Source: Chrysomallon squamiferum
Taxonomy: Eukaryota > Animalia > Mollusca
Reading direction: 5' to 3'
Length of the DNA stretch: 64,000 nucleotides
Assembly: GCA_012295275.1 (NCBI GenBank)
Contig: CM022672.1
Span: forward strand, 10,354,001-10,418,000
In this document: piece by piece, positions 4,421 through 58,150 of the stretch
How positions within the stretch are numbered: the first letter of the stretch is position 1
Layout: each line of letters begins with the position of its first letter
Notes under the pieces: generated by a model
Told to the model about the DNA's origin: nothing
The model's input: the letters and a program-made list of their open reading frames with translations, nothing else
Databases searched by the model: none
Made by a program: the position numbers and the translations under genes

Positions 4421-5035
4421 TTAAAACGCATAACCAGATAACTATTTAAATAAGGTTATCAACAAAAACGTGTTCGTGATGTCATGTCAACCGCTTAAAC
4501 ACTCAAGACCTGACAGAGTCGTATCCTGCTGTCGACACAAAACTAAGCTTTACTTCACTTTGTCTGCAGTTTCCATAAACCTAGTCTCCGTATTTCATTC
4601 AAAAATTAACCTAAATATTTATAATTTAAAAAAACCAAGAAAGTAAAAGTGTACGTCACATACAGAGCAATTTATTGAAATTTATTATCTAACTTTACTT
4701 AAAACATATTCTAAATAGAGCAAGTTGATTTTAAAACATTCCTGAGAATAAATCTTATAACTATAACACATTAACCTCTAAAAGTTTCTAATTAAAATGT
4801 TTTAAGTAGCAAATTTTAACTGTAAAAAAAAACTAACATTTAAAAATTACAAATAATAACTGTAAAATATTCTAAACAAAATATTTTGTCTTGCCAGTTT
4901 AACTGTAAAACGTTTTCGTTAAAACATTTTTTAACTATAATAATTTAACTGTAAAACTATTACAATAATTTAACTGTACAATGTATTCTAACGATATGAA
5001 ATTAACTGCAAAATCTTTCAGTTAAACCTTCTGTT

Positions 5036-5850
5036 ATAAATTAACTATAAAGCACTGTATTTAAAATATATTCTATTATGAATTAACTGTGATGCATTGT
5101 ATTTGAAATATATTTTACTATGAATTAATTGTAAAGCACTGTATTTAAAATATATTCTATTATGAATTAATGGTAAAGCACTGTGTTTAAAATGTATTCT
5201 ATTATGAATTAACTGTAAAGCATTGTGTTTAAAATGTATTTTATTATTAATTAACTGTAAAGCACTGTATTTAAAATATATTTTAATATGAATTAACTGT
5301 AAAGCACTGTATTTAAAATATATTCTATTATGAATTAACTGTAAAGCACTGTATTTAAAATATATTCTATTATGAATTAACTGTGATGCATTGTATTTGA
5401 AATATATTTTACTATGAATTAATTGTAAAGCACTGTATTTAAAATATATTCTATTATGAATTAATGGTAAAGCACTGTGTTTAAAATGTATTCTATTATG
5501 AATTAACTGTAAAGCATTGTGTTTAAAATGTATTTTATTATTAATTAACTGTAAAGCACTGTATTTAAAATATATTTTAATATGAATTAACTGTAAAGCA
5601 CTGTATTTAAAATATATTCTATTATGAATTAACTGTAAAGCACTGTATTCAAAAAATATATTTTACTATAAATTAACTATAAAGCACTGTATTTAAAATA
5701 TATTTTATTATGAATTAACTATAAAGCACTGTATTTAAAATGTATTATATTATGAATTAACTATAATGCTCTGTATTTAAAATATATTTTCTATTATAAA
5801 TTAACTGTAAAGCATTGTCTTTGAAATATATTCTATTACGAATTAACTGA
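5036..5850 (+). repeat. 42-bp AT-rich minisatellite, about 19 units, with a 294-bp higher-order duplication
   Basis: Unit tgaattaactgtaaagcactgtatttaaaatatattctatta (starts at 5331, 5373). Diagnostic variants recur at +294 (gatgcattgt 5091/5385; tggtaaagc 5171/5465). Degenerate aactgtaaa units flank it at about 4815-5030. Confidence 0.95.
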
Positions 5851-6038
5851 AACATTCTAGTTAGAAGTATATTATCCGCAAAACATTTTAGAAAAAAAAA
5901 AAAAAAACATATTCTAATTAAAACAAGTTAACTCTGAAATATTCTAGTTAAAATATATTATCCGCAAAACATTTGAACATAAACATATTCATAACAAATT
6001 AACAGTATCACATATTTAATTAATCTCTTTCGTTCCAG

Positions 6039-6152
6039 TAGAAGTTGTCGCTGCCAATATGCCTGAGCTAGTACACATGTCTGCGGGGTTGACGTTGGAC
6101 GCCATAGCCTGTAAAGAAGAGGATGCTGTCGTGGTGGACTATATACTGAAAG
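6039..6152 (+). CDS. Candidate coding exon of an unidentified gene (EVVAANMPELVHMSAGLTLDAIACKEEDAVVVDYILK)
   Basis: Acceptor tctctttcgttccag and strong donor AAG|GTGAGT. 114 nt, open in phase 1-1, GC-rich against the background. Internal AATATG at 6059 could be the start. Confidence 0.6.
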
Positions 6153-17869: not shown

Positions 17870-18252
17870 GCTCGAAATCTGCTTTCAATTCGAGACTCGT
17901 GCGAGAATTCCACACGAAAAGAATTAGCCAGATGCGTGTTGTTTGACTCAATTAGCGACTACACGGACAATAATGTAATATGTCTTTAGTGGAGTGGAGC
18001 GGTCGCATCGTCACCCTGCACGGTAATTAGTCGAGGTCCGCGAGCAGGTTTTGTTCCGTCACGCAACGTTTCGGTCCCGGCGGACTGGCGAATCGGAAGA
18101 ACGAGAGTTTTAAGTTTTCTTCGGTTTCCCGCGACTTGCAATTTAATCGCGAGAAACTCCGACGAACGACGTCTACGACATGATCCGTGTCGCCATCACC
18201 TGATCACAGCTACGACTCTACACCTGAGCGCGAAAACGTAGGCGATTCTAAG
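17870..18252. promoter_or_regulatory. CpG/GC-rich island, possible promoter or first-exon region
   Basis: Marked local enrichment of CG dinucleotides between a poly-T and a poly-A tract. Confidence 0.45.
17980..18022 (+). CDS. Candidate short first coding exon (MSLVEWSGRIVTLH)
   Basis: AATATG start, 14 codons plus G, donor CACG|GTAATT (phase 1), inside the CpG island. Confidence 0.25.
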
Positions 18253-37920: not shown

Positions 37921-38005
37921 TAATAATAATAATAACAGTACTAGTAGTAATAGGTGTTGTAAGAGTTGTAGTAGTAATAATAATGATTATAATAATAATA
38001 ATAAT

Positions 38006-38053
<48 letters not shown>

Positions 38054-38113
38054 AATAATAATAACAGTACTAGTAGTAATAGGTGTTGTAAGAGTTGTAG
38101 TAGTAATAATAAT
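37921..38113 (+). repeat. ~63-bp direct duplication embedded in (AAT/AAC)n
   Basis: aacagtactagtagtaataggtgttgtaagagttgtagtagtaat occurs twice. Confidence 0.9.
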
Positions 38114-38145
38114 AATGGTAATAATAACAAAACAGCAACAACAAC

Positions 38146-38177
<32 letters not shown>

Positions 38178-38239
38178 AGAAGAAGAAGAAAGAAATGTGT
38201 TCTGGTCGAAGCATTCAACAGGTTGTTTAAATTACAGTT

Positions 38240-38765
38240 ATACGGTATCGTTTAGGTTTGAATCTTGTGGGTGATGTGTTCTCTGTAGGAAACACTTCTT
38301 CCTGCCAGTACCAAAATGTAGAAGGTTTCCTTCCCCTCAAGATTTTGTCCGAATTCCCCAAATTAATGTAACGATTAATAAACGACAATTAATTAAAGAC
38401 CTCTAATAGTGTTGTTAAAGTACTGATAATAATATTAGAAATACTTAATAATAATACTTTTTTTTTTTTTTTAAATATATGAGATGCATTTTGTATTAAC
38501 TATCAGTTCTGCATCATAAAAAATGACCCGTTCTGTAATAAAACTTGGAATCCATTTTGTAGTAACATTTGGCCCGTTCTGAAATAATATTATAATATAT
38601 GAAGTGTTATGGAAGATTGTACAGATATATAATATACCCGTTTTTTATACATTAAGGTGGGATTTAACGAGTTTGTTGTGCTTCATTGGCAAGATCAAAT
38701 CGCCTCGGTGGAACTGGTTACAGTTTATTCCGGAACCAGTGCTCCATGACTTGGTCGTGATCAAG
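38240..38765 (+). mobile_element. Two decayed SINE fragments (38240-38422 and 38688-38765)
   Basis: aaaatgtagaaggtttcc...gtgttgttaaag tail and agatcaaatcgcctcggtgg...ccagtgctccatgacttgg core, matching the other copies. Confidence 0.5.
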
Positions 38766-38882
38766 CATATACACGCGCACGCACGCACTTACACATTCGC
38801 AAAAAACACACATACATATGTTTCTGCATCTATGCATTTGTGTGTGTTTATATAGTTTGTATGTACGTACGTGTTCATAATA

Positions 38883-38914
<32 letters not shown>

Positions 38915-38960
38915 CGTGTAGGTGTGTGTTTCTATGTATTATGAGTGTATGTATGTATAT

Positions 38961-38995
<35 letters not shown>

Positions 38996-39499
38996 ACATA
39001 TACAGTTATGATGATTGAATAGATATGTTTGTGTTTAATAATAACAATAATAAAATATTTGTGTGTGCGTTATGTTGGTGTATACGGATTTATAAATGAT
39101 ACATTCTTTAACAAAAGAAAAAAACAACTTGTTCGCACTTTAGTTTATAGTTAAACAGAAAATCTGTTCTGTTTAAATCCGTTCAGTATAATACATATAT
39201 ACATATAGATAACCAGTAATATATAAATTTACCCAGCGTGTTCTATAGATGTAAGATAGATCTTGCCCACATTCGTGTTTATCAATCATTCGTATTGATA
39301 CTAGAATGGTAATTTGTATTTCAGATAACTTATTATTCCGTTTCATACAGAAAAATCAATTTAGCAACAGTTCACTTTATTTTATTAACATAAACATTAT
39401 TTTAATGTATTACTACACCTGAGAGTAATGAATAATTTTAAGTCACTAAATAACATTAGCCCACCTTTTCACTTGTCCTTTCGATGCTCTCTGTTTACT

Positions 39500-39600
39500 G
39501 CAATGTACGCGTGACCTAATTGTTGTTTTGTCGCGCATGCGTACTGTCGGCCAGTGGGTCGGGGACTAGGTTCTCTGATATTTGGCCGTATTAAAATTTG
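39500..39600 (+). promoter_or_regulatory. Probable housekeeping-type promoter with an NRF1/ewg-like site
   Basis: cgcgcatgcgta at 39532-39543 in a CpG-rich patch, about 160 bp upstream of an ATG exon and just upstream of the CpG-depleted domain. Confidence 0.55.
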
Positions 39601-39699
39601 TTATATTGAGGTTCCTTCAAACTGACAGCTATTATTTTCTAAAGAAAATATATGTGTGGATCTCTCTACAATAATTTATGTTGTCTGTAACCAAGAAAT

Positions 39700-39808
39700 A
39701 TGATTCAGACGTCGGAAAAAGCCGATTCCAACCAAGTACATGCATCTTCCGATAACTCTGTGGAAGAACCTGTACCGTCTGCCGACCTAGAGGATAATGC
39801 TGTCGAAG
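39700..39808 (+). CDS. Probable first coding exon of an unidentified gene (MIQTSEKADSNQVHASSDNSVEEPVPSADLEDNAVE), acidic disordered N-terminus
   Basis: AATATG with an in-frame TAA just upstream, 36 codons plus G, donor AAG|GTAAAG (phase 1). Followed by more than 24 kb of CpG-depleted intron-like DNA. Confidence 0.6.
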
Positions 39809-40358
39809 GTAAAGCTAATTTCCAGCACTCTCTGTAGTGAGGGTTTAAATAAAGACTGTGCATAGTTGACGTGGGGCCAATTAAGCACGTGCACCCAATA
39901 ATATATCGCTGTGTTGACATGCACGTGAGAGCGAACTAAGCGGTTGTATAGGTATAGGAAATGGTGTCAACCGGTGTGCAGCCTAACATTCCCTTGTATG
40001 TGCTTCATACCCGTTACCTTTATCGCTTACTAATTTTTAGATTGCATTTTCCCCCTATAAATAAATATTATAAGAGTTGATTTTGAGTGGAAATAGATAT
40101 GAATAATGAATGGGTTTTATTTACTGTTTTTGAAGGTAGTTCTACTTGTAAAACGTCAAACATGCTTTTGGTTTTATGGGAAGTTGGCTATAGTTTGTTC
40201 CAGAATTATTTGGTACGTAAATTATTACTGTAAACAAACGTGATTTTTCCAGTTCCAGTGTTTCAGTTTGACTTTATGAATGTGGGTGACACTGTCATGT
40301 TTATAACAGTAATAAATGCTATTGAATAATGGCCAAAATAAATCTTTTTAATCAGTAT

Positions 40359-40389
<31 letters not shown>

Positions 40390-40899
40390 TATTTATAAAT
40401 TTCACATCCATTTGCTCGTTTTTGTTTCAAAGCATTTGGTAAATCAAAGGAAAATAATATTTTTGTTTTCAGTTTTTATTTTCCAAACAGTACATTTTTA
40501 AATCTAAAGGAACAATCCATGCAGATAACAATCATCAGTAAAAATGTATTGGTAAAAAGTAATAGTTGTCAGTTTGAAGATTTTGTTTATATATATTAAA
40601 ACACTACTCCAGATACCAGTTGTCCCTGACTTCATGGTCGTCAGTTTTTTCATTTGACTAATACGAGTATCTTTGATATAAAACTCATCTATTATGGACA
40701 CAATCTTTTAATGACCACTGTCCAGGGTGTGACAGGTTTTCTCCCTTACAATGGAGTTATTTTTCAAATAAACATCTTTCCTTCATTTATTTTTAGCCAT
40801 GATCATTTTTTTAGCTATAACATGTTTTTTGTGTATTTTCATCAAAGATAGTAATGAGTTCACACAAATTCCTTAAATCACAAGATTAAAGACTTATTA

Positions 40900-41465
40900 C
40901 AGTGGTCCCACATGATAAGGACATATAGTTACTCAGAGATGTTCATTAACTGAACTGTCATCCAAGATATCTGTACTGAGAATGGAAAGTGGGCTGTGGT
41001 GTAGTTGGTTAGAATTGCAGAGGGTTGATGAGTTTGTCAGTTAATTAATAAATTTCTTCCAGTTTCTTGTGAATTAATTAGTTGGGTTTTTGCACTGGTT
41101 TCTGCAAACAACAGTTTTAGAGCAGGCAACTCACTGAATGTTAAACTGCTTGTCAGTCAGAGTGGAATATAGGCAGTGCTTAGATTGATTGCTTGACAAA
41201 TGAATTGCAAGATAAATGTTTCTCAGTGTATCCATTATGCTATGTTATATTTCAATCATTCATTTATTTCTCAAGGACCATCATATGCATGATTATGGCT
41301 ATCTTAATGAACTTAAACTAAGTGGGCATCACTGAAAGTGGTAACAGAAGCTATTTTTTATTTTATATTTATATACTGAAAAAATCTTAATAAATTTATT
41401 AATAATTAAATCACACTGAGATGTAGTTCAGTGTGTGTTGATGTCAGATAATAGATGGACTACTG
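40900..41465. mobile_element. Old pogo/Tigger-type MITE
   Basis: TA|cagtggtcc...gacat at left and atgtc...ggactactg|TA at right form a degenerate TIR pair with TA TSD. Confidence 0.45.
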
Positions 41466-42769
41466 TATTTCTTGTCAGTACAGATGAAAATTAATGTCAA
41501 CAGCACACAACAAAATTCTGGCTCAGTTTGTATGACATTTTTATACAGTTAGTGTTTATCATTTTAAGAACAATTTCAAACAATTTCGAACAGCAGGATG
41601 TAACTTTGACAATGTCTATCAGTATTTGTTTCAGCATTAACATTAATAAATATTTAAATAAATTGTTATAAAACACTGACAACTAAGGTGTATATAACTT
41701 TACAGTGTTAGCCAGATTAACAGTATAAGTTAATGCTTTTGTTTAAGAAAAGACTATATCTGTGTGGTTGCAAAAGATGCAAACCACTGCTTTATGAGTT
41801 GTTTTTTCTGGGTTATTTTCTTTTTTGTGGTGTTGATATTTTTTCTAAGATAGGTTCTTTCAGAAATTTAATAACAGTATAATTAAAACTGTTGTATTAT
41901 TCCTAAATCTAAACTGTCTTATTATAACCGAGCAATTATATAATTACTAAATAATCACTGTTTTGATAAGTAAAGAGTTTTTTAATTATTAGCAACATTA
42001 TGTTCAGTAATTTTAATTTTTATTAGAGATGGCTACGTATTTTTTTTTCCTTGAGGAAAAGTAGTAGTTAATATAAGTTGTCCTCCAGATATTCAGGGAT
42101 ACTGTTAACCTGTTATATTATTTCTTAATTCTAAATAACTTATATTTGTTCCCATACAAAATTTTCATATGTCCCTTCCCCTATCGGTGCACTTTTCTGT
42201 TTGCCTTTTTTTACTATTTTTTTCAATTTGAGTTTCGAAACTAAACTAAAATAAATAAAATAAACAAAATCAAAAACCAGTGTTAAAAGAAACCAGATCC
42301 ATCATAAAACATGGTGTTTTATTTGCTGTACAAGACCTGGTAGGAAAAGATCACATAATACATTAGATGTTATTTATAGTACTTGCAGATGTGCACTGTA
42401 TACACTCATACTGTTTGTAGTTTCTGTTCCTGTAATATATATTATTTAACACACTCAATAGGTAGTAGTATAGAATATCATCAGCTGAAAATATCTGAAG
42501 CATGAATGATAAATCATTAAAGTTATATCAGTATTACTGCTGCGGTAAAACTGGCAAATCCAGCAAAATAGTTGTTAATATAATAATAAGGGTATATTAT
42601 ATTCTCAGATACAAAGAAGAGCTTGATTATGTTTGTACAAAGGAAGATTATAATTGTATCAACTTTTAGAATTAAGACATTCTCAGAGGAATTATTAAGT
42701 TCACTGGTGATCTTTTTAAGCAGTAAATAACAATATGCATATGTACATATGTGTATACCTCCATATACG

Positions 42770-42798
42770 CACACATACACACACACATGTAAACACAC

Positions 42799-42832
<34 letters not shown>

Positions 42833-42844
42833 ATACATACATAC

Positions 42845-42889
<45 letters not shown>

Positions 42890-42898
42890 TATACATAC

Positions 42899-42946
<48 letters not shown>

Positions 42947-42970
42947 ACACACACACACATATATATAATA
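42770..42970. repeat. (TA/CA)n microsatellite
   Basis: Direct reading. Confidence 0.95.
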
Positions 42971-44089
42971 TTTGATATATAATAATGACTAAAGTTGCTG
43001 TTGATTCACTGGCTGAGTGAGATTGGTTAGAAGGCTTGCCCATGCCAGGCATGCTAGATAACGGTTTTCTCTGATTAGAACATCACTTGCTAGCATACTT
43101 TAATGTGTTAATTTACAAAAGAATTAGAAACATTTAAAGATACCTATATACATTTTTATTTGATTTAAAGTACAATTTATTTTATTGAAAGTAGTAGCAC
43201 TGAATGTTTTATATGCATTTTCTTAAAAAATTGGATGATACATTTCATTCCTCTGATATACCATTTGTTGAGCATTGGGCAGAATGGGAATTACAGCTGT
43301 AAAGTTATGTTAAATTACAGTGTTAATGACAACTGAATTTTGAAAAAGTATCAGAAATATTTTTTTTTAAACATCATTTCTCTAAAAATATTTTGATAAA
43401 ATATAAAAAATATTTAATAATAACAATTATTTTATTTTTATTTTTAAAAAAAATCAGTATTGTTATGAAAATAAGTCCTTGGTTTGCAGCTAAGTGCAAA
43501 GAAAGTACTGGTATGTTATTGGTTAATATTAAACAACAAGAAAGATACAAAAATATGCAGTATTTATATTTATAATCTGTTGTCAGTAATCCAGAGTAGT
43601 GAAAGGTATGTCTAATATATCAAAATACCTTGCAAGAAATTTTAATTTTAATTTTAATTTTTTTTTTAATAAAACTGATAAACATGAAATCCGTCATGAT
43701 TTGCCCAGAAAAAAAAAGTCCTTCCTGATTATATTTTCATCCAACAGTCAAAAGAGTACTAAAACTATGTTAATTAAAATTCTGTTCTATTTGCCAGAAG
43801 GATAAAATAAGTACTAACGATAATATTGTATAATAATTTTTACTCCTCAGTTTGAATAGGCCTAAATAAAATTAATAAATTTTAACAAATAGCACAGAAT
43901 TTCATCTTAATAAAAAATTGTTGTTAGGAAAATAATAAAAACAGTTTATGATAATATTGAACTATAATTCTTATTATAATTAAAAAAAAAAAAACCCGCT
44001 GAATATATAAATATAATCTGTAAAGGAAGAAGATCCCTTACTAATATATTTTATTTAAAATATGGGATTGAACATGTTCTATTTAAGAT

Positions 44090-44250
44090 GGTACAGCTTT
44101 AAGGATACAGTTAAGAACTATTCAGATAGCAAGTAAAGAAACTTGTTGAAGCCATTTTCTGAACTGCTCCATCCAGTTAGCAGCAAATAATCTTTTATAT
44201 GCACCTTTGCACATACAGGATCATACACACCACAACCTTGATTACACCAG
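44090..44250 (-). mobile_element. Decayed SINE (Meta/MESC-like core)
   Basis: ttagcagcaaataatcttttatatgcacc...acaggatcatacacaccacaaccttgattacaccag is the antisense of the core ctggtgtaa.caaagg...gtggt...tcctgt...gtgcatataaaagat...ttgctgctaa. Confidence 0.65.
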
Positions 44251-45268
44251 AACCTAACACATCATGACAAGGCACAATAGTGATAAATATAATTGTGATT
44301 TTAAAACTCCCAAGTTGCAACTCCAAGCACTACATTTATCATCGAAACAGCAAAGGGTTTAAAATGCCAGACAGACTATTTATTTCATTCTACAAAAATG
44401 ATACCTGATAGGATTTTAAATGTTTTATTTTTTTTATTTTTTTTAAATTTCTTAAATTTCACACTTCATACCATAGTGTTAAAAAATAACGACATGGATC
44501 ATGTATGTATGTAGTTAGCTTTACTCAGTCCATTTTTTTTTTTTTTTTCTACTTATATCCAAGTTTCAGTTTTACTGTCCCTCACAATTTATTTGTTTTT
44601 ATTTAAAATACATTACTGTTGTTGTTACTTGTTGGAATGTTTTAGAACTGGAAAAGAAAAAAACATCTTTAAAAAAAATTATAAAAACATTCTGTATATA
44701 TACAATACAGCATGTAATACAAAACATGACCACAAAATAGTTGTGTCTGATTCAGAAAAAATGTTTAAAGGTCACTTCAGGGATGCTGACCTGTCCATTG
44801 TCCTGTTACAGATAGCTACAGGCCAGTGAACTACATGCTTTCACATCACTGAACATCACTAAACTAGTTTATATATCTCCACTGCTGTGCTCAGTAAAGC
44901 TATCTGTTACTACTGCAATACATCACCAGCAGTAATGTGTGTGTCTACTCAGTCTGTACAGCTTGGAGGTCACAATGAATGACATATCTCATATCAGTGG
45001 AGATAGCAAATAATTGTTAGTTCATTTATAACTCGATTTGGTTTAAATATGATATACATGAATAAGTGTTGAATTAACATACATATTAAAATACAATTAC
45101 AGTGGACTTGGTCAAAAACCGGATTCGTTTGGGGACAATGTAGGCAGTTTTAGACAGAGTGCTGGTTTATAAAGATTAAAATGACATGAATTGGAATATG
45201 TTTTATTACAAATGTTAAATGTCTATAAAGTGTCAGCTTACAAATAGTCTATCACTGATGGCTGCATG

Positions 45269-45300
<32 letters not shown>

Positions 45301-47172
45301 CTTTTTTTTTTTTTATTATTTCTCTCCAAAGCAAACTCCTCTGTCCTATGCAAAAGTCTGCTTTTGATAGTAGCAGCAAAAGATTTAATTTGTTTTATCA
45401 TTTTAAGAATGTCAGCATCATTGTGTATATTCAGATTTTTGAGTTTATTGGTTTCATACATTTGGTCACTGCATTTTAACATGTCAAATACTGTCTATAG
45501 TTATATTTAAAACAGCATAACCAGGGTTCAGGTGGTGGGTTGACATGAGCAAAATATTCACCCTTTTTATGTTAAATTTTGTTTTACTTTTAACCTATGG
45601 CAAAGTCTAAGTCTTTTGAAAATATATCACTTGGAAGTTGAAATCAAGACCTCATTTTGCCTTCACTTTGTGCTGTGAACTCACTTTGCATTCAGCCAGC
45701 AGACTGTATGAATAGCTGCAAAAAGGGATTCTTTTACTGTTGTGATTACATTTTTTTTAACCTTGTATACAAATAAAGTTAATTACGATGGACCTGTACA
45801 TGTAAAGATTACAGTTAACAAACCAACTTAAGTCGAGGTCTGAGACTTGAGAAAGCAGGCTGCAAGTATTCGTAAACAAGCATAAGAATAAAACTTGTAT
45901 TAAATAATTTTATCACTTATGGCATCAGCCTGTGTACAATATTATATGTTTAAATTTCGGTTATGTCATATTGTCTCATTTCACATTCACTAAACCTCAC
46001 TTCACTCTAAGGTGTCTACCCTGCATAGCTAAATCTTTCTGTTTTACGCAGTGGATTTGATGAAAACTGTTAATTTTTATTTAGAGAGTTTGATACGTTG
46101 CCATTTTTTTAGGCTGCTCTGCCATTACAATGAATTTAATAAGACAATGTAAAATGTGCACCATGCATATTTATGCAGACTTCTGCTTTTGACATTTTAT
46201 CAAAATGAATATATTCACTTAGGTATCAACACACTAATAATAATCTTGTTCATTTAGCTGCTAATGGTAATTACAAAAAGTATGGCATCATTGTTTATCA
46301 AGCCTTCAAAGACAAGCGATAATTTTATCTCCCATGGAAGCCTCATTTAATTATGTGCAAAATTTGCAAAATCATATGCTGATGTTGACAAAACTAATTA
46401 CTATTCAACTTGTTCTTTTGTTCTGGAATTTATACCTAAATCTGAAGTAGACAGCATCCAGATTAGTCAAGGTTTTGTTCATGATAGGTTAACTTGGTGC
46501 TAGTTTATACAGAAATCCAGATTAGTCAGAGGCTGGTTTTCACAGCATCCACTGTATGTGATATAATCAGTGTAATACCACTAAAGTGCATGTGATTTAG
46601 AAGATGAAGGTGATGGTGAATGAGTTGCCATACATTAAAAGAAAAAGTGCATATACATAATTGCATGTTAACATTCTAAAAGGTTAACTGTACACATTTT
46701 GTAATGATATTCCATCTTGCTGTGCTCATATTACTAATATTAGTCTTCATTTCTTACATCATTAAAGGAAGATTTCGATTTCTTACTGATTAATCCAGAA
46801 TTAACACACACACACACACACACACACACACGATGTATTCTGATGACCACCAGGTATCAAGCATTTTTAATACATTTTTGATATATAATATTTAAGTGAG
46901 ATGAAATTTGATGATGCTGTTCTTATTGCTGTTAATATCTTTCAACAACAACGTGTGTATCTTTACTTAAAGTGGAATATACAGATCATTGCCCTTAATC
47001 AAACAGTTGTTAATGATGGCTAGAAGTGAAATAACTCATGAAGACTGCTGAAAAGGGTTGATAATATCTGACTTTACCACCAGTCACATCCTCAAATTAG
47101 GAAAAATATTAAATATTTCACTACATTCAGTTTGTGTTGTAAGATAATTGTTTAATCCTATATGACACTAAC

Positions 47173-47208
<36 letters not shown>

Positions 47209-47894
47209 CAGAGTAAGTTAAAGGAAAAAAGGATACAAAAATGTTCATTTTGTTCAGGATAAAAAATGTTTTATTATATTTTTATTGCATTTGAAAAAAA
47301 AAAAAAAAATTATCTGACATCAGCAATATATTGAGGTTAATGAATATTGTGATTTTTTATCTAATCTTCTGGTTATTTTCAGTTTCCATAACTATTTCAG
47401 TTATATATATATATGTTTTTATTATTATTATTTTTTATTGTTATTATTAATGTCTTAAAAAAATATGGGAATTAGTTGAAATCATTTGTGCATATTCTGG
47501 GTATGCTGCACCTCCATCAAATATGGTTAATTCATGATAAAGTTTCACTCAATAATATAATATTATAATGGAAAAATAACTTCTATTCCCTGCTATGAAA
47601 TACTTTAGGTTTTTTCTGAAATATCTCTGCACACCCCATAGCTAATAGTGACACAATATGGCACAGAGCAGATGGCAAAAATATCAAATGTCAAAAGAGT
47701 AAGATTCTATCAGCAAATCCAATGACAATAACCACAATATGTCACTGGTTGAAACTAATGGTTGTTTCTTGTGCTTCTCTGCATTAGCACAATACTTAGT
47801 ACCAACCCAAATAGGTTCAGTTCTTCCTATCAGCACAGTCTTTTAATCAAAAAGTAACAATATGGTACAAATTAAGTTTTGAAACCAGTATTTA

Positions 47895-49193
47895 TACTTC
47901 ATCAAAAAGAAACAATAGACAAAATATGCAAGGAATCATCTCTTATAATATCATTATTTATGATCATATCACAGTAAAATCTGACATGAGTATGTGACAG
48001 TGTTCTTGCTATGTACTGTTGGTAGTAGAGGCATTTTCATTGAGGATTATTGCAAGAAATGCTGAAATCAGTCTCTTGTTTGGCCACCAGCAGCAGCAAT
48101 CACTGCACAGTATCTTATAGACTAAACATATCTCTGAATCCAGGCACGTGGAATTCTAGCTCATTGTTTGTGTAGTGCATGTGACAGTTGTGATAGAATC
48201 TGAGGCTCCAGGTCATGCTGACGTACACATCTGTCTAGTTCATCCCACAGGTATTCAGTGAGGTAGAGATCTGGTAGTCTTGATGACCATGGCAGCATGT
48301 TATTTGTTCCCATTCTGTAGAAAATCCATTGTCTTAAAGAGTTCTCTCTATCAGTCTAATAAATGGGAAGCATGTGAAGGCAAAGCGTTTCATGCTAGTA
48401 GCATATAGCTGTCATGTTACCATGTGCAAACCAAAGTTTATTTCCTCTGGTCTGTGAAATGGCTCACCACAGTATGATAGTCCTTCCACTGAATTTGTCA
48501 GTTTGAATGATGCAGTTCCTGGGAGAACTTTCTTTGCAGCATCTGAAAACACATTGTCATCCATCACATCACTGTAAAAGGAAACGTGACTCATCACTGA
48601 ATCATATTCACCACCAATTACCCAAGTTCCATCTCTTATACATTCATGCATCAGCAAACATATAAATGTTGAAGTTGATGCACAGGACCAACAAAGTTTG
48701 CTCCAAATGGTTTGTGCAGACACACTTTGCAAATCAGTTACGCATCCAGCAGTGGAAGTTCAGTGGCCCAAGTGCAGAACCCAGATCTTCTGCTGCACTT
48801 CTGGACCAGTCTTCAGCTGACTGAAGTGCTGGTGCCTGTCCCAAAGACACAAAATTGTGCTTTCAGGACTGCAGTTAACCTAAGCCTATTATAATATTTT
48901 GATTTGGCAGGCTTAGCCTTGTTATCTTGTGAGCCATTTACTAAAAATGGAAATGAAGCATCATGGCAAGTATTGCAGTTTTAAATACCCTTCAGTTCTG
49001 CAATCAGTTCTCTGAGTTTCTTGTGCATATGCCAAAATCTGACCATTTCATGCTAATTATCAATGATTGTCACACGACATTAACAATCAATGTCATTCAG
49101 CAGAATTGTACCAAAACAAAAAAACAGTATTTAGTAAAATGAAGCACTTTTCTTCTTTCCCTGTGACCTATGTGTTTCTTTTTTCACAGAGTA
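47895..49193 (-). mobile_element. Decayed Tc1-family DNA transposon (~1.3 kb)
   Basis: Degenerate TIRs tacttcatcaaaaagaaac (left) and gtttctttttcacagagta (right), each next to TA, enclosing a transposase relic. Confidence 0.8.
48068..49030 (-). pseudogene. Tc1 (DD34E-type) transposase pseudogene
   Basis: The minus-strand frame contains FSDESRF (48581-48601), LPWSSRLPDLYLTEYLWDEL (48236-48295; compare LPWPxxSPDLNPIEHLW) and terminal AVIAAAGGQTRD*. Many stops, and the second-Asp region is deleted. The 5' boundary is approximate. Confidence 0.9.
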
Positions 49194-49218
49194 TACACAG
49201 TATTTGTATTTGTATATT

Positions 49219-49318
49219 TGTATGTTTATGTAACGACACCCCAGCTCATAAAATAAAATTGACTAAAGGTAAAAAATAAAATTATTTAACATAAGTCGGT
49301 CTAAATAGCTGACTTACA
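49219..49318 (+). repeat. Dispersed repeat fragment, homologous to 60235-60350 (probable retroposon tail)
   Basis: taa(c/t)gacac.c.agc.ca.aaaataaaattg...aaaggtaaa...ataagtc...taaatagct.acttac is shared by both copies. Confidence 0.75.
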
Positions 49319-50865
49319 ATGTATATGTAGCTATAAAACACATACTATATTGAAACATTTATACTGTCACAAATTTATTATAAAATACAGTGACTTTTAA
49401 AAACTGTATAATAATCTATGGATGAAATCTAAACGACTGCATCATATTCTCATTAAAAAATACATTATCTTTAGTACTTCTACAGAGTCATTATAAAATC
49501 TTTGTGCAGTTATAATATTTCATGATTCCTAATTGTGATGAAAGCAATAAAGAAAGTTATCACTCAAATTTAATGAGGTTCAGCATGAACTAAGAATGAT
49601 TATAATCTCTGCATTAGAATACAGATGTGATTTAGGGCAAATCTGAAAACAAACTGCATAACATATTCGTATAACCTAGAATTGTATTTCATTTAAAAAT
49701 TAACAATCCCAGGAACAAATCTGGTTAAATTTTAATGGGCTATTCCACTTACTTTTTAAATAAATTGATATTATTTTGGATAGAATTGAAATTACAGAAA
49801 AAATACACAGGTAATTTATAATGAGCTGGTGTATTCACTTTTGCAGTAACAATGATATCATTTGTATCATCCATCTATTCTTTCTTGCATTCATTCTCAG
49901 TCATTCATTTGCTTTGACATGATAGTCTATACACTGTATTTAATGCAATGCAGTCAGTCACTTTTGTAGAATATCATATTGTCAGAAATGTTACTCAGTT
50001 TGGATTCCACTGCTACAGGGGACATTTGGATTATATTTTTACAAAGGGCAGAGACTCAGTTTTGACACAAGCCACATTCATGCATTGACATGTGCAAAGT
50101 TTTAGCTAACAATAATTTTTTATATATAAATGACTGTTGAAGTTTTATTTATGGTTATACTTGAACAAGGAGAAAAACAGGAGTTTGAAATATTTTATAA
50201 ACCACAGTAAATGATATTCAGTATTGTATTGTCTTGAATTGTTTGAAACATTCAAATTATTTGTATGTTCACCTTCCAAAGCAATTAAAGGTTGAAGGAT
50301 ATTTTTATACTTAAGAATATTTTTCTAAAGATACATGTATTGAAACACAAAAATAAAATAAAGGACATTTTTTAAAAATTGAACAAGCATTAATAAACAA
50401 CTTAAATTTGCCGTAGAAAGATAAATGATTCGAATCAGCATTAAATAAATTTTTAATTTATTGTTTATTACACTGATTTCAAGTCTTCATTTTTGAGAAA
50501 GACATTTTTAAAATAATATTTAGACTATTATCATTTACACCAATTCAAGTCTTAAATTACACACTGCAGATTAGAAAAAATAGCAAAGAAAAAATATTAA
50601 TATCTTCTTTAATGTAGTTGTTTTCATATTATTTTTCTAACTTTATTGTCAACAAGTTTTTCAAGACGAACATCACGAAATTAATATCATTCTTACACTA
50701 GGTAATAATTAATTTCATTGTCATTAAAACAAAGTAAGTTAAACATAACAAAGCATTTTAAATCATGACTTTTTTTCAACAGTGCCTTAGTAACAAGGTA
50801 GATTTACAAGTTTGGAAAAAGATTTTTTCTTCATGCATAGTATGTAATTAGTAGATGTTTATGTG

Positions 50866-51461
50866 GTTACCAGACAACGTTTTGGACAAATACCCCCTAT
50901 ACATCTACCCCATTAGGACATCTCCCCACTGGACAAGTACCCCCTTGAAAACATAGCTAGTGAAAAAGATAACATGTACTAAAAACATTGTTGGTTGTGT
51001 TTTTAGTACATTTATCTTTTTCACTAGCTATGTTGTTGTTTTGTTGGTTTTAGGGGTTTTTTTTTACTTTTTTTTTATCTGATATATTTTATTTTACATT
51101 TTACAGAGTAACAATAAAAAGGAATTATATACAAAGCAGATGTTAATCATATAGGCTAGATCTGTATATTGTGTGCAAAACCTCGTAAAAAGGCCAAGAT
51201 AGGATGGTTGTCATTGTCAGCTGCTATAGTAGATAAGCACTCACTTATGGCCTCATATTTGCCAGGTTGTGATGGATCTACTTGTATCTGGGTCAAACAA
51301 CTTCAGTGAAAGATTGCCAGATACTAGGCTCTTACATCATACTGTTTAAGATGATGCCAACCTTTTTTTTCAAAAGGCATGGGTGGGGGTGATCTAATGG
51401 ATAGATTTCCTATGTGGTAGTTGTCCAGGGTGTATTTGCCCAGCGGTATTGTCCTGATAAC
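50866..51461 (-). mobile_element. Internally deleted Mutator-like (MULE) element
   Basis: Inverted ends gttaccagacaa / ttgtcctgataac, with subterminal ggaca...cccc repeats on both sides and a transposase C-terminal relic inside. No clear TSD found. Confidence 0.7.
51156..51362 (-). pseudogene. MULE transposase C-terminal fragment
   Basis: Frameshifted GWHH...PSIW...KYEAISECLSTIAADNDNHPILAFLRGFAHNIQI*, matching the animal MULE tail pattern EGWH...HPxIW...LxFLRGIAHN (from recall). Confidence 0.75.
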
Positions 51462-52032
51462 ATATTAGGTATATATACTCTGAAGCCTGAGTTTCAGTTT
51501 AAGAAAATAATTTTTTGTGTTAAAATAAGATTATTTAAATGATATATTGGACTTTGATTTTCCTATTTAACTCTTAGGAGTAAACTGTACTAAGATGTCT
51601 TGTGATTTTGTCAGTCAGTCTTCTTTCTGTTTGAGTGAATGAATTTTAAAATGTCGATCCTCGAAGAATATTGAAACTAATTAATTCTGTGCAGTTTTGT
51701 TTACAAAATTAGCAAGTCTGGAATACAACAATGTTTCGACTCTATGATGTACTCTGCTGATAGGCATGGCAAGAATATGGAATAACATGAAACAACTGAC
51801 CCATTCAAGTAATATTCTGTAGGGCAATACTGGTAGGACATAATCATTTACAAATGTGGCTTTTAGGATAGGAAATTCTGTTCTTAAATGGAAGAATTCC
51901 ATTGTTCCTAGAGACTGAGTTTGCTCTTTATTTTTATTTTAAACTCCTAACAGCTGCAAAATGTTCATTATCTGAAAAGAAATGGTCCTTCAAAATATCT
52001 TCTTTATGTAGAAAGAGAGAGTATCACAATTA

Positions 52033-52590
52033 CCGTATATACTTGTGTACAAGGAGACCTTACGTATAAGTCGATGTGTATTTTAAGACCAAAAATTGCG
52101 TCATTTTAGGTATTACTTGTGTATAAGTTGACTGTAGATTCCAGGCACCGTCACTATTTTTAGACCAGTGTGACAGTGCCATGAAGGCCTACATTGTACG
52201 CCTACTGTAACATAACTTGCACGAGCTGTAACTTGCACGTGCAATTCAAAGTAAGATAATTTCGGAACCTCAGCAATATTTTTTTCTATCGAAACTCTGC
52301 TACAAGACACGCCCCCGATCCTATTCCTAGCGTGCTAATTGGCCGAGGCTTCGCGCATTTGGCAACCGACTAGAATAACAAATATGGCGAGAAGTTGAAC
52401 TGATTATTGTTGCAGAACGTTTATAGAAATTTAGTTTGTTTTCGATTTGTCGGTAGTGAATATTAATGACGATTGCAATATTATTTCACCAAATTCTTTA
52501 CAATTACACAAGTGAGTTTTGTTTATGACCCCCAAAATATTACCTTAATATAGTCTCCCAAAAATTCGACTTATACACAAGTATATACGA
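52033..52590. mobile_element. pogo-type MITE, 558 bp, TA TSD
   Basis: TA|ccgtatatacttgtgta ... tacacaagtatatacga|TA; subterminal tataagt(c/t)ga repeats; CpG-rich interior with a YY1-like aatatggcg. Confidence 0.85.
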
Positions 52591-53893
52591 TACTTATCAG
52601 AGGCACAGAGAAACCAACACTTTCTGGATTTTACCCATCCACCAACCCCCAACACCAGCCACTGTTTTATCCACATGTGTTCCAAAGATTCTCAATGAAA
52701 TACAATTTACCTATAATTTAATTTTATAAAATTCTTCATGTGTTATCAGCAGTTATTTTCTTTTTATCATAAACCCTCATGATCTTTCCTACCACCTGGA
52801 TATAAAACCTTTGGTCAGAGAACATTAATTCTCAGGCCATTATCTCCATTAGTATTTTTCATCTTATGACACTTGACGATGCACTGCCAAAACACGTACA
52901 CAAACAGGATCTGTCTTGTCTGGTTCAATATGGAAAGGATCTATTTCATTTTATATTTATATTTATTTTCCTTCACCCTCAGTAATCAAGTATCAACTGT
53001 AATGGAAGTTAGTGCAGTTCCAAAAATATTGCGATCCTGATACTAAAATATAGCATTTAAAAAGCAGAAACATTTTTATACGAGTCCAGCAAAGAAGAAA
53101 GGTCAGAAGAGTTTAGGAATAAATGAAAGAAAATAGACATTAGTAAATCATTGCTCAAAACTGAAAAAGCCAGAAAAACATCTGAAAGCTTTACCCATTT
53201 ACAGCTGTGACTCCATCACATACACAGTAGTATATAGGGCTGATTTTGTTTTTCCCTGAATGTAAAAATGTCATCACTACAGAAAAATGGCAGTACCCAG
53301 TTATTTGAAAACTGTACTCTTATATTACATATACGTTGGTAATAGTTGAAATCATATAATAGAAAACAAATAAAAATAATTTTGAAGTATGCATGTAGAA
53401 GACTATTTCTGTATGTCACCAAAGTTATACTTTAACTTTTAATAAGGTATCAAACATTAAAATATTTAAGACTAATCCACTAATAGTGCAGCATGATCAG
53501 TAGACAATACAAATCTGTCCATGGTATATAATACATTTGGTCTTTTCTGTATTGGAGAACAAGACCTGCAAAATAATTTTTTTGTGACAGAATAAAAAAT
53601 ATATATAAAAAATAAATATAAAAAAAATATATAAATAAATAAATGAAAAATCAAATATGATGGATAAAATATAGACTTTCAGCTTGGAAGTGTCTTCATC
53701 TTTTTAGAACAGTTGTGTTTTTACTGGATTGCATTTTGTCCCAGGCATAACAGAAATTTACCTTTAATGTAATTTTTGTCTTTGTTAATATAAAATTACT
53801 TTTATTTTGTGACTCCTTTAAGTTTATGTAGTATAAATGCATAATCCAGAAAGCAGTATATATTCAGAACTGATGGGCATATTTTTAGAATAT

Positions 53894-53929
<36 letters not shown>

Positions 53930-55110
53930 TCTAATTGGTGATTAATGTTAAAAGAAAATGAATGTTTTTCATTTAAAAAAAAAAAAGAGTCAAGAAACAG
54001 AATTTACTTGTTAGTGAATTAATGGATCAATTTTTATTTTAACAAAGTTTATTAGATTTAACAAAAACAATTTAAAAATAGAGTACATGACATTAGCTTT
54101 TCAATTACGTATTGTGAATTTATTTATCTAGTTTTGTAAATAAATTCTTTCATTTTATTTTGATATTAAACATGTATAATTGGAATAATAAATAGATGTT
54201 TTAATGGAGTCGTTCTTATTTTATCCCAAAACCAAATATTTATATCTTAATGATGGGATGCCATCCCAAAACCATTTATTTAGTGTTGACTTTGTCTCAG
54301 ACTCAAATAAATGGAGGCATAAACACCCCACAACAGTGTCCTCCTAACAAGTCTCTTCCTATGAGCTACTGTTACTAACATGTAAAAAGAGATCTTTTAT
54401 ATCTGTGACTGAGTGTGCAAGAAATCATTTGAATAATGCACAAACTTTGGATATCATGTTTACCTATTCTAAAACACAAGTACTCACTCTACCATTAGGC
54501 CTCAGACCTGACAACCAGTTGTTGTTTTTCAAAACACGCCTGATGGGCTGAGTTTTCAGTAACAGGTTAAATGGAGAGTAATTTGTCTGTGTTGATATTT
54601 ACATAACAATTTATAACAGTTTGGGTTTGATGAAGTGTAGTAAAATTTAAATAAAAAAACATTTTTTCATGTGAATTTCAACCATTTTCTCCTCAATTTT
54701 GAATCATGTATGTGAATGTGTATGTGTATATTATCATCATATGTATCTGAATGTATATATGGCTACATAAAAATTGGCATGAAAAGACATTTTTAACTGT
54801 TACTGAAATATACAGATACACTTATCCGAGAAGATAATGATTTGATGAATGGAATTATCAGATACATTTCAGTACATACATACAGTCGGTTTGTCTTATC
54901 TGCAGATATTGGATCCCCAGCAGATGAAATTTGAAATATCTAAACAAATTACTATTTCAAAAAAATAAGGAAAAAACCGTCCTTGACATGTACTGCCATC
55001 TAAGAATTTACCATCTGTTATAACACACATTTTAATTCTTTGGTTATGTTGGTATTATTATTAGTAGTAGTTTTGAAAAGGCATGTCCATTCATAAAATA
55101 TTTATATGAT

Positions 55111-55157
55111 AACTAATATTTAAAAACACCTTTTTTCTTTTTCTGTTGCAGGTAAGT
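55111..55157 (+). other. Candidate recursive splice site (ratchet point)
   Basis: CTAAT branch-like motif (55113-55117), AG-free tract ccttttttctttttctgttg, then CAG (AG 55150-55151) directly followed by GTAAGT (55152-55157). Confidence 0.65.
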
Positions 55158-55184
55158 TTCATGCTGGTCATTCTACAGCAGTCT

Positions 55185-56505
55185 TGTGTGTGTGAACCTA
55201 CAGGTAAAGTAATTGTCACAGATAACTCAGGTTTGTGTGAACCTACAGGTAAAGTGATTGTCACAGAGATAACTCAGGTTTGTGTGTGAACCTACAGGTA
55301 AAGTAATTGTCACAGATAATTCAGGTTTGTGTGTGAACCTACAGGTAAAATGATTGTCATAGAGATAACTCAGGTTTGTGTGTGAACCTACAGGTAAAAT
55401 GATTGTTACAGAGATAACTCAGGTTTGTGTGAATCTACAGGTAAAATGATTGTCACAGAGATAACTCAGGTTTGTGTGTGAACCTACAGGTAAAATGATT
55501 GTCACAGATAACTCAGGTTTGTGTGTGAACCTACAGGTAAAATGATTGTCATAGAGATAACTCAGGTTTGTGTGTGAACCTACAGGTAAAATGATTGTTA
55601 CAGAGATAACTCAGGTTTGTGGGAATCTACAGGTAAAATGATTGTCACAGATAACTCAGGTTTGTGTGTGAATCTACAGGTAAAGTGATTGTCACAGAGA
55701 TAACTCAGGTTGGTGTGAATGTACAGGTAAAATGATTGTTACAGAGATAACTCAGGTTTGCGAATCTACAGGTAAAGGGAATGTCATAGAGATAATTAAT
55801 TTTTATGTGTGAATCTACAGGTAAAATGATTGTCATAGAGATAACTCAGGTTTGTGTGTGAATCTACAGGTAAAGTAATTGTCACAGATAACTCAGGTTT
55901 GTGTGAACCTACAGGTAAAGTGATTGTCACAGAGATAACTCAGGTTTGTGTGTGAACCTACAGGTAAAGTAATTGTCACAGATAACTCAGGTTTGTGTGT
56001 GAACCTACAGGTAAAATGATTGTCATAGAGATAACTCAGGTTTATGTGTGAACCTACAGGTAAAATGATTGTTACAGAGATAACTCAGGTTTGTGTGAAT
56101 CTACAGGTAAAATGATTGTCACAGAGATAACTCGGGTTTGTGTGTGAACCTACAGGTAAAATGATTGTCACAGATAACTCAGGTTTGTGTGTGAACCTAC
56201 AGGTAAAATGATTGTCATAGAGATAACTCAGGTTTGTGTGTGAACCTACAGGTAAAATGATTGTCATAGAGATAACTCAGGTTTGTGTGTGAACCTACAG
56301 GTAAAGTGATTGTCACAGATAACTCAGGTTTGTGTGTGAATCTACAGGTAAAGTGATTGTCACAGATAATTAAGGTTTGTGTGTGAATCTACAGGTAAAG
56401 TGATTGTCACAGATAACTTAGGTTTGTGTGTGAACCTACAGGTAAAGTGATTGTCACAGATAACTCAGGTTTGTGTGTGAATCTACAGGTAAAATGACTG
56501 TCATA
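55185..56505 (+). repeat. 45-49-bp minisatellite, 28 units, with a 666-bp (14-unit) higher-order duplication
   Basis: Unit gtgtgtgaacctacaggtaaaatgattgtcacagagataactcaggttt; length varies by GT/AG slippage. Variant order repeats at +666 (GT at 55204/55870 and 55249/55915). Confidence 0.97.
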
Positions 56506-58150
56506 AAGAGAACTGGAGGTATCCATAATGGGAGCTTTTCCCATATGTTGCCAACTTTGATTTTGTTTCATTTTAAACATATACTGATAATACTGTTTGA
56601 ATACTGTTTGGAAATGTCATCACACAGTCATATAGACTTTTTAAAATGTATATTACTTAAGAATAAGCAGTTTTTGTTTGTAAGAACTTTCTGTTCATTG
56701 TTTAATGCAATATAAATAGGTAATTACGTTACGGTGTTGTTGGATATATAGTGTGACGTGGTATAAATAATTCTTCCAAAAATTAGAAATGTTGTTACTC
56801 TGGTGTTGTCTGGTGCCTTGATACACCAAACATTACTGTTCCTGTTTTCAAATTATTTAAATATTTGTGGAAAAGCTTTCATATCAAGAATGAAACATTT
56901 TTAAACATCTGATGGTAAATTTTAATAATGTAAGGAAATGTGTGTATGCATTTTTGTGCAGTTCACATGCCCCAAACAATCTGCAAGAATCTCTTAGGTG
57001 ATGAATATAAAAGAGACACATATTAAGATACGCAATGTAGATTATATTAATTATGAAAATTACAAACATCCTTCTCCGTGACATGATGTCAGCATGTTTT
57101 TTCTTTAACTAATACTGTTAGGCTGTCTGTGACAGTCTTTATTTGTAACAAAATCTGTAGGAATGTGTACTGAAGATGGATCTGCAGTAAACTCTTGATG
57201 TGATGTATTTAGAGGACACAAATGTTGGAGATTAGGGACACCCATATGAGTGGTGACACCCTTGCAAGATGCCAGTTTATTCTTGGCCATATCCTTGGTT
57301 CACAGCAAAGGTCTGATGAACTAAAAAAACATTTTATTCACTATTTCAGTATTGAAATTATATTTTTAAGATACAGATATGATTTCTCCAGCAAGTTTGG
57401 GTCCAGATTTCTAGTTCTTGGAATCTAGTATACATCAGGTAATTCAGTTATAATAAAAAACAATGAAACGTTACAACATGCTGGTACCTGTAGTCTGTTA
57501 AACTGAGGGTCTAGTGTAGTGAACTGTAATGTGGACTAGTACTTACTAAACACTAATACACTGTTACTCAAGTCTGATGTTTCCAACCAGCTGGTTCTTT
57601 TAAATATCAAACTGATTCATTACAGGATGCAGAAGATATCAATAATGGACTAAACAAATTTAACTGCTCTAAATAGAGACAAATAATTCAAAAAGAAATT
57701 ATGTGTGGCATTGTGTAACGTTACTCATATTTTATTTATTTATATTTTATTTTTTTATTTCTTCTCATTTTGTTATTTGTTATCATTTGTATTTTATTTA
57801 AAACATCAGTTTGTTGTGGGGAGAAGTTTCTTATATTATTTATTATTGTTTCTTTGGGGTTTTTTATACATCATTTCACCATATAAATCTATTTCAAGTG
57901 CTAAGTCTATATACGAAGATAAACTATCAGTAATTCTATAACACAAAATATCACTTTGTACTGATAGTAAAGCTCTTAACTTCAAAATCATGTCAACTTG
58001 ACATGGATTGTTTACAAACTTTTTTTATAGTTATGCACTTCTATGTGTATATGTATGTGTATGTGTATCTGTGTATATGTATATGTGTGTATGTGTATCT
58101 GTATATGTATGTTAGTATGGATGTATGTATGTATGTATGTGTGTATGTAT

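What the first reader, a model, noticed from the sequence alone, without database searches (positions are those of the whole stretch)
55111..55203. Textbook recursive splice site with a poison RS-exon in a long, probably molluscan intron
Seen: branch-like CTAAT about 35 nt upstream, a clean AG-free polypyrimidine tract, and CAG immediately followed by a perfect GTAAGT donor. It lies about 15 kb downstream of the 39808 donor on the same strand. A second donor CAG|GTAAAG at 55204 defines a 52-nt cryptic exon; joined to the phase-1 upstream exon it reads GKFHAGHSTAVLCV-stop. Established: this AG|GT plus downstream-donor, stop-containing RS-exon architecture defines recursive splicing in Drosophila and vertebrate long introns. 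Inference: recursive splicing operates here. I know of little documentation of it in lophotrochozoans.
Basis: partly seen in the sequence, partly recalled or inferred. Interest (0 to 1): 0.78.

Follow-up and report, generated by a model that had tools for sequence, protein, structure and literature searches.

The report
Likely stepwise splicing in snail FTZ-F1
Inside a long intron of a snail's FTZ-F1-type nuclear receptor gene sits a fused end-of-intron/start-of-intron signal that likely lets the intron be cut out in steps, as in fruit flies; assembled RNA shows that the main message skips it and that one similar signal elsewhere is joined to the same upstream exon, but use of this very site is untested.

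Summary
The motif is real: branch-like CTAAT, 69-nt AG-free zone, 18/20 pyrimidines, TT at -6/-5, CAG|GTAAGT at 55151/55152. It is the best acceptor of 711 YAGs in the intron, and 4-14 of 1000 shuffles match it. The host is a gastropod NR5A/FTZ-F1 gene: exons ending 6152 and 39808 match Gigantopelta isoforms. In 4 of 4 RNA runs (one study) the 39808 donor joins the DNA-binding-domain exon beyond the window, so the intron exceeds 24 kb and the main mRNA skips the site. No join to 55152 was seen, but these contigs also lack the unspliced exon-intron boundary, so this is inconclusive. One run joins exon 1 to a different GTAAGT-starting sequence outside the window, likely a second recursive-type site. 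Fly ftz-f1 has a medium-confidence recursive site. Verdict: likely ratchet point (0.7), unproven; saw-tooth, lariats and conservation untested. My searches found no molluscan report. The scan noted similar candidates on other DNA before (invertebrate CaMKII, sea-urchin nuclear receptor, arthropod Rap1GAP).

The parts
6035..6152 (+). Upstream alternative N-terminal coding exon of the NR5A/FTZ-F1 gene, phase-1 donor AAG|GTGAGT (5' end approximate)
   Evidence: tblastn 89.7% over 39 aa to Gigantopelta NR5A2-like isoform X1, P0136; 83% over 35 aa to Littorina P0003
39538..39808 (+). Proximal first exon (ATG 39700, 36 codons plus 1 base), phase-1 donor AAG|GTAAAG
   Evidence: RNA contigs start at 39538-39558 and leave at 39808 in 4 of 4 runs; 26 of 36 aa identical to Gigantopelta isoform X2, P0025
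39809..64000 (+). Long intron before the shared DNA-binding-domain exon; runs past the window end (more than 24.2 kb)
   Evidence: start of the next mRNA exon is not in the window; no + strand match to 76 molluscan NR5A N-termini between 39809 and 64000 at E<=1
55113..55117 (+). Branch-point-like CTAAT, branch A at 55116 (-35)
   Evidence: fly recursive branch points lie mostly at -36 to -21 (10.1101/006163)
55081..55151 (+). AG-free zone (69 nt), polypyrimidine tract (18 of 20) and acceptor TTGCAG with TT at -6/-5
55152..55157 (+). Donor GTAAGT directly after the acceptor (candidate ratchet point), 15,343 nt from the 39808 donor
55152..55203 (+). Predicted 52-nt cryptic RS-exon with TGA at 55193-55195 in phase 1; no homologue in molluscan NR5A N-termini
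55204..55209 (+). Weaker competing donor CAG|GTAAAG, first of 28 repeat-borne donors
55187..56514 (+). 47-nt minisatellite, 27.9 copies, TG-rich, each unit with CAG|GTAAA(A/G)

Best explanation
The site at 55151/55152 is likely a recursive splice site (ratchet point) in the long intron that leads to the DNA-binding-domain exon of a snail NR5A/FTZ-F1 gene. Shown: exon 1 ends at 39808 and is joined in the main mRNA to a common exon beyond 64000, with nothing from 55152 included. Inferred steps: (1) as polymerase passes 55152, the strong acceptor is defined together with a downstream donor (55204 or another minisatellite copy) and exon 1, or the 6152 exon, is spliced to it; (2) this recreates AAG|GTAAGT, a stronger donor than the repeat-borne GTAAAG; (3) it wins the competition and is re-spliced onward, probably by way of at least one more such site beyond the window, so the stop-containing cryptic exon leaves no trace in mRNA.
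For: Best acceptor of 711 in the intron followed by a perfect donor; 4-14 of 1000 shuffles. TT at -6/-5 as in 196 of 197 fly ratchet points, branch at -35, first segment of 15.3 kb against a fly median of 16.4 kb. The site is inside a transcribed intron and absent from the main mRNA in 4 of 4 runs; homologues join the first exons straight to the common exon. Regenerated donor scores 8.75 against 4.4 for the 55204 donor on a rough recalled matrix. Run X1 has a second contig (112 nt, depth 9.5 against 11.8 for the main join) that links exon 1 to a sequence beginning GTAAGT that is not in the window, so AG|GT-type acceptors appear to be used from this donor. [quoted passage not shown] Fly ftz-f1 (FBgn0001078) has a medium-confidence site in a 33.7-kb intron.
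Against: No exon 1-to-55152 join in 4 of 4 runs. The test is weak, since the unspliced exon 1/intron boundary is also missing in 4 of 4. All four runs are one study and contigs only. No RNA was laid over the site, so saw-tooth and use of 55204 are unknown. No orthologous intron DNA was obtained (2 short loci ending under 1 kb past the 6152-type exon). The X1 join concerns another site, appears in 1 of 4 runs and only 34 of its 82 new letters were visible. The fly site has saw-tooth support only, zero junction reads, and its position relative to the DNA-binding exon was not established.
Confidence: 0.7

Rival explanations
1. Dormant look-alike: a chance strong acceptor followed by GTAAGT that the spliceosome skips; the intron is cut in one step or only by way of sites beyond the window.
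For: No join to 55152 in 4 of 4 runs, while a join to another GTAAGT-starting sequence was visible in X1. The downstream donor is repeat-borne. In vertebrates such motifs are barely enriched (0.9-1.5 fold).
Against: Rank 1 of 711, with branch motif, AG-free zone and TT all fitting; none on the antisense strand or among 34 strong acceptors of 1-39500; invertebrate enrichment of 4-22 fold.
Confidence: 0.17
2. Ordinary poison cassette exon: 55152-55203 is sometimes included by normal alternative splicing, which truncates the receptor before its DNA-binding domain, and is otherwise skipped with no re-splicing.
For: Acceptor, 52 nt, donor and in-frame stop are present. The X1 contig lengths (60 and 112 nt) fit inclusion of a 52-nt GTAAGT-starting exon at another place in this intron (inferred from 30-letter contig overlaps), so such inclusion may occur in this gene.
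Against: No inclusion isoform of this exon in 4 of 4 runs; a perfect donor at the exon's first base is not needed for a cassette exon and would compete with its own donor (PMC8605326).
Confidence: 0.1
3. The GTAAGT is the donor of an unannotated alternative first exon ending at 55151, or 55152 starts a coding exon of another isoform.
For: The gene has several alternative first exons in relatives; the 13-residue peptide recalled the start of a WD40 repeat (from memory).
Against: No match to molluscan NR5A N-termini on the + strand of the intron; low CpG around the site (o/e 0.26-0.36); by eye a stop precedes the phase-1 frame with no ATG; the host is a nuclear receptor, not a WD40 protein.
Confidence: 0.03

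Closest known systems
Drosophila intronic ratchet points with cryptic RS-exons (Ubx-RP, kuz, Bx, luna; 10.1101/006163 whole text; PMC8605326 Introduction and passages; PMC6110457 Results parts 1-2 of 3)
   Same: Juxtaposed strong acceptor and donor, TT at -6/-5, branch at -35, long intron of a developmental regulator, segment of about 15 kb, out-of-frame cryptic exon of about 50 nt with a weaker donor, absent from main mRNA.
   Different: Gastropod; no junction, saw-tooth, lariat or conservation evidence for this site; the cryptic exon's donor is repeated 28 times in a minisatellite.
Candidate recursive site in Drosophila ftz-f1 (FBgn0001078; PMC6110457 supplementary files 5 and 9, rows seen)
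   Same: Same gene subfamily (NR5A); first segment 15,404 nt against 15,343 nt here.
   Different: Medium confidence, saw-tooth only, zero junction reads; whether it is the same intron was not established, and the similar length may be coincidence.
Expressed RS-exons such as Ubx m1/m2 (51 nt; PMC8605326 passages)
   Same: The extra X1 contig would fit an included 52-nt exon that starts with a donor motif.
   Different: Ubx microexons keep frame and are conserved; a 52-nt insert here would shift frame before the DNA-binding domain; its length is inferred, not read.

Membership tests
Recursive splice site (ratchet point) | AG|GT with strong acceptor and strong donor motifs | tested here: met
   rank 1 of 711 acceptors, GTAAGT
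Recursive splice site (ratchet point) | TT at -6/-5 and branch point at -36 to -21 | tested here: met
   against 10.1101/006163
Recursive splice site (ratchet point) | Lies in a long (over about 11 kb) transcribed intron on the sense strand | tested here: met
   intron from 39809 to beyond 64000; strand from splice polarity and protein homology
Recursive splice site (ratchet point) | Leaves no sequence in the main mRNA | tested here: met
   exon 1 joined to the common exon in 4 of 4 runs; for homologues
Recursive splice site (ratchet point) | Cryptic RS-exon of about 50 nt with a weaker downstream donor | tested here: inconclusive
   52 nt, 4.4 against 8.75 on a rough recalled matrix, but the donor is one of 28 repeat copies and its use is unseen
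Recursive splice site (ratchet point) | Junction reads from the upstream donor to the site | tested here: inconclusive
   0 of 4 runs; the unspliced boundary is also absent in 4 of 4, so rare branches are lost; a join to another GTAAGT-starting sequence in 1 of 4
Recursive splice site (ratchet point) | Saw-tooth read density resetting at the site | not testable with these tools
   only assembled contigs were offered and no RNA was laid over the site
Recursive splice site (ratchet point) | Lariats to and from the site | not testable with these tools
   needs raw total RNA or lariat sequencing
Recursive splice site (ratchet point) | Motif conserved in related species | not testable with these tools
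   no genome held; the 2 related loci found are too short
NR5A/FTZ-F1 nuclear receptor gene (host) | Window exons and next mRNA exon match NR5A proteins with C4 zinc finger and ligand-binding domain | tested here: met
   the domains themselves lie outside the window and were seen in the homologues only

The most novel reading that the evidence does not exclude
The long intron before the DNA-binding exon of snail FTZ-F1 is removed through a chain of at least two ratchet points, one of whose 52-nt cryptic exons is kept in a large share of transcripts in some samples as an off switch; with the fly ftz-f1 candidate this would make recursive splicing of this gene an old protostome trait and give the first RNA evidence for it in a mollusc, with a minisatellite that amplified the cryptic exon's donor.
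Probability: 0.2. Interest if true: 0.72.

Novelty: new member of a known kind. Interest (0 to 1): 0.5.

Why it matters
Recursive splicing is shown by RNA in flies and a few vertebrate introns and by motif counts in other insects and sea urchin; my searches of the held library found no report for molluscs or other lophotrochozoans. A named gene, a used donor and a precise site make the question testable with one RT-PCR or with existing total-RNA reads. If it holds, stepwise removal of long introns is general among protostomes, and the cryptic exons offer a way to switch off a developmental nuclear receptor.

Tried and rejected
Whole-genome background and the downstream part of the intron: no genome is held. 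WD40-like coding exon (recalled resemblance): rejected by gene identity and the direct exon 1-to-common exon join. An F-box-like reading of the next exon from ATG 39797: rejected, the phase-1 frame matches P0025. Exon-1 peptide searches found nothing (0 of 5 candidates; 0 hits); the gene was found through the 6152 exon. Pfam on 30 of 98 listed ORFs: one weak hit below cut-off. The X1 extra join as an allele of the 55152 exon: rejected, 31 of 2000 random intron 52-mers score as well and there is no close match in the window. The X1 join as an unspliced allele with an insertion at intron base 5: not excluded but thought unlikely. The bubble reading (30+52+30) is not unique: relatives have further first exons whose junction residue implies a last base other than G, which could also explain the 60-nt contig. 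Metagenome scan for orthologous loci: 2 loci from 499 pattern hits, too short to reach the site. RNA fold of 55090-55300: no special structure (z 1.49). Look-alike stretches in the scan's other genomes: none for 38000-49999, the part looked up. Intron contigs at depth 2-7 in RNA runs were not used as proof of nascent RNA since no silent control stretch was laid. One search was uninformative (30 of 11,119 listed, none with the key term). PMC8136749 supplements gave no fly intron sizes as text; its figure may hold them.

Full report
Observation. The elements described are present. CTAAT is at 55113-55117, with the branch A 35 nt before the acceptor, and the acceptor reads TTGCAG, so TT is at -6/-5. 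The 69 nt before the AG hold no other AG and 18 of the 20 bases before the CAG are pyrimidines. GTAAGT follows at 55152. In the 24,192 nt from 39809 to the window end this is the only AG|GTRAG on the + strand (none on the - strand) and it ranks first of 711 YAG acceptors. Shuffles of that intron without the minisatellite gave an equally good site in 4 of 1000 (strict) and 14 of 1000 (looser) trials, with block shuffles alike. The bare 8-letter motif is expected about 0.8 times, so the signal is the pairing of best acceptor and perfect donor.

The second donor at 55204 and the stop at 55193-55195 lie in the first unit of a 47-nt minisatellite of 27.9 copies, 55187-56514, which holds 28 CAG|GTAAA(A/G) donors and occurs nowhere else in the window. 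The 52-nt exon and its peptide are as stated, but its 3' end is a repeat feature. On a rough matrix recalled from memory the donor recreated after splicing scores 8.75 against 4.4 for the repeat donor.

Host gene. The exon ending at 6152 matched a Littorina 'steroidogenic factor 1-like' protein with C4 zinc finger and ligand-binding domains whose best single-domain matches among solved structures are NR5A proteins. Among molluscan homologues, Gigantopelta aegis NR5A2-like isoform X1 carries the 6152 exon peptide (89.7% over 39 aa) and isoform X2 the 39700-39808 peptide (26 of 36); both continue with the same residues, ASTSGGDGQY, into the DNA-binding domain. The same two N-termini and the same direct join recur in abalone and several bivalves. 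So the window is the 5' part of a gastropod NR5A/FTZ-F1 gene with alternative N-terminal exons. Donors 18022 and 31377 found no homologue among 86 N-termini, and nothing on the + strand of 39809-64000 matched 76 N-termini at E up to 1. CpG observed/expected falls from 1.0 to 0.26 at about 40 kb, as expected if gene-body methylation starts at the proximal promoter (inference).

RNA evidence. Four RNA runs of one study and one run of unknown kind hold this DNA, all as contigs. Laid on 39500-42700, 4 of 4 RNA runs cover 39538/39558-39808 and leave at 39808. The main loose end is the same in all four and, read in phase 1, gives the residues that follow exon 1 in the Gigantopelta protein. It is not in the window, so the intron is longer than 24.2 kb from this promoter and 57.8 kb from the 6152 exon, and the main mRNA has nothing from 55152. 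No contig joins exon 1 to the 55152 sequence (0 of 4). This says little: the unspliced exon 1/intron boundary is also missing in 4 of 4 runs although intron contigs of depth 2-7 begin at 40108-40918, so rare branches are dropped. Run X1 alone has a second branch, a 112-nt contig (depth 9.5 against 11.8 for the main join) in which exon 1 is followed by a sequence that begins GTAAGT but is not the 55152 sequence, is not in the window and is no allele of it. The simplest reading is splicing to another AG|GT site further down the same intron, either a recursive intermediate or an included exon. If contigs overlap by 30 letters, 112 = 30+52+30 and the 60-nt main-join contig fit a bubble with a 52-nt insert; only 34 of the 82 new letters were visible and another first exon could also explain the 60-nt contig, so this is inferred. 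No RNA was laid over 55152 itself, which leaves saw-tooth coverage and use of the 55204 donor open.

Mechanism. Most likely (0.7): exon 1 is spliced to 55152 during transcription, with the downstream repeat donor helping to define a transient exon; the recreated AAG|GTAAGT outcompetes that donor and is spliced onward, so the stop-containing exon is never kept. Shown: sequence anatomy, host gene, donor use, skipping in the main mRNA, one join to a like site. Inferred: every step at 55152. Rivals: dormant look-alike (0.17), plain poison cassette exon (0.10), unannotated first or coding exon (0.03).

Comparison. Duff et al. (10.1101/006163, whole text) define ratchet points by junction reads, AG|GT, saw-tooth density, lariats and conservation; 196 of 197 have TT at -6/-5, introns are 11-133 kb and segments have a median of 16.4 kb. 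Joseph et al. (PMC8605326, Introduction and passages) add the cryptic exon of about 50 nt and donor competition. Pai et al. (PMC6110457, Results parts 1-2 of 3, passages, one Methods section, supplement rows) find sites in 63-70% of fly introns over 40 kb, enriched in first introns and developmental genes, and list a medium-confidence, saw-tooth-only site with zero junction reads in FBgn0001078, which is ftz-f1 (PMC1847479, one passage); its first segment is 15,404 nt against 15,343 here, possibly a coincidence. Arthropod FTZ-F1 also uses alternative starts upstream of the DNA-binding exon (PMC8136749, passages). Shepard et al. (PMC2773006, passages) report 4.0- to 21.7-fold sense-strand enrichment of such motifs in five invertebrates and 0.9-1.5 in vertebrates; no mollusc was included. 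If snails behave like those invertebrates, most strong sense-strand sites are selected; that is untested. The sequence-level criteria are met; the functional ones are inconclusive or untestable here, so this is a strong candidate and not a proven member.

Novelty. Searches of the held library: 'recursive splicing' with 'mollusc' 0 papers; 'recursive splic' with 'mollus' 2, with 'cephalopod' 1 (listings only, single mentions, other topics); with 'lophotrochozoa' 0; ftz-f1 with recursive and ratchet 0. Most subscription journals are not in the library. The scan has noted similar unproven candidates in other genomes. The mechanism is known; the clade and gene would be new. Interest 0.5.

Noticed in passing
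window 39808, run X1: Exon 1 is joined to a GTAAGT-starting sequence outside the window at nearly the depth of the main join, in 1 of 4 runs; contig lengths fit a 52-nt frame-shifting insert. This is better RNA evidence for an AG|GT acceptor than anything at 55152.
   Followed up: partly
window 55187-56514: 47-nt TG-rich minisatellite that starts inside the cryptic exon and repeats its donor 28 times; TG runs could bind silencers of cryptic exons (recalled for TDP-43/CELF, untested).
   Followed up: partly
window 6059-6151: Isoform-specific N-terminal motif (LTLDAIACKEEDAVVVDYILK) nearly invariant in gastropod and bivalve NR5A proteins (22 hits from 76 N-termini at this place) with no Pfam match; probably a conserved cofactor-binding site.
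   Followed up: partly
window about 40000: CpG observed/expected drops sharply from 1.0 (1-39500) to 0.26 (40001-55151), suggesting that gene-body methylation begins at the proximal promoter and that the upstream promoter is used less.
   Followed up: partly
window 39533-39541 and 39652-39755: GCGCATGCG palindrome (NRF1-like, recalled) at the RNA start, and two upstream ATGs (39652, 39678) with short frames, the second overlapping the main ATG.
   Followed up: no
window 52028-52595: CpG-rich 570-nt element with 26-nt terminal inverted repeats: likely a recent non-autonomous DNA transposon in the intron.
   Followed up: partly
window 48164-48355, - strand: Frame that resembles a decayed Tc1/mariner transposase piece (recalled); no Pfam hit at E 0.05.
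   Followed up: partly
window 17900-18200: Strongest CpG patch of the window with a short phase-1 frame (ATG 17980) and donor at 18022/18023; could be a lineage-specific first exon, no homologue found.
   Followed up: partly
window 5029-5849: 42-nt minisatellite of 19.5 copies just upstream of the 6035-6152 exon.
   Followed up: no
L001:4359-4465 and L002:7692-7800: Two metagenome contigs carry the same N-terminal exon with a phase-1 G|GTA donor at the same place; host-animal DNA in metagenomes.
   Followed up: partly
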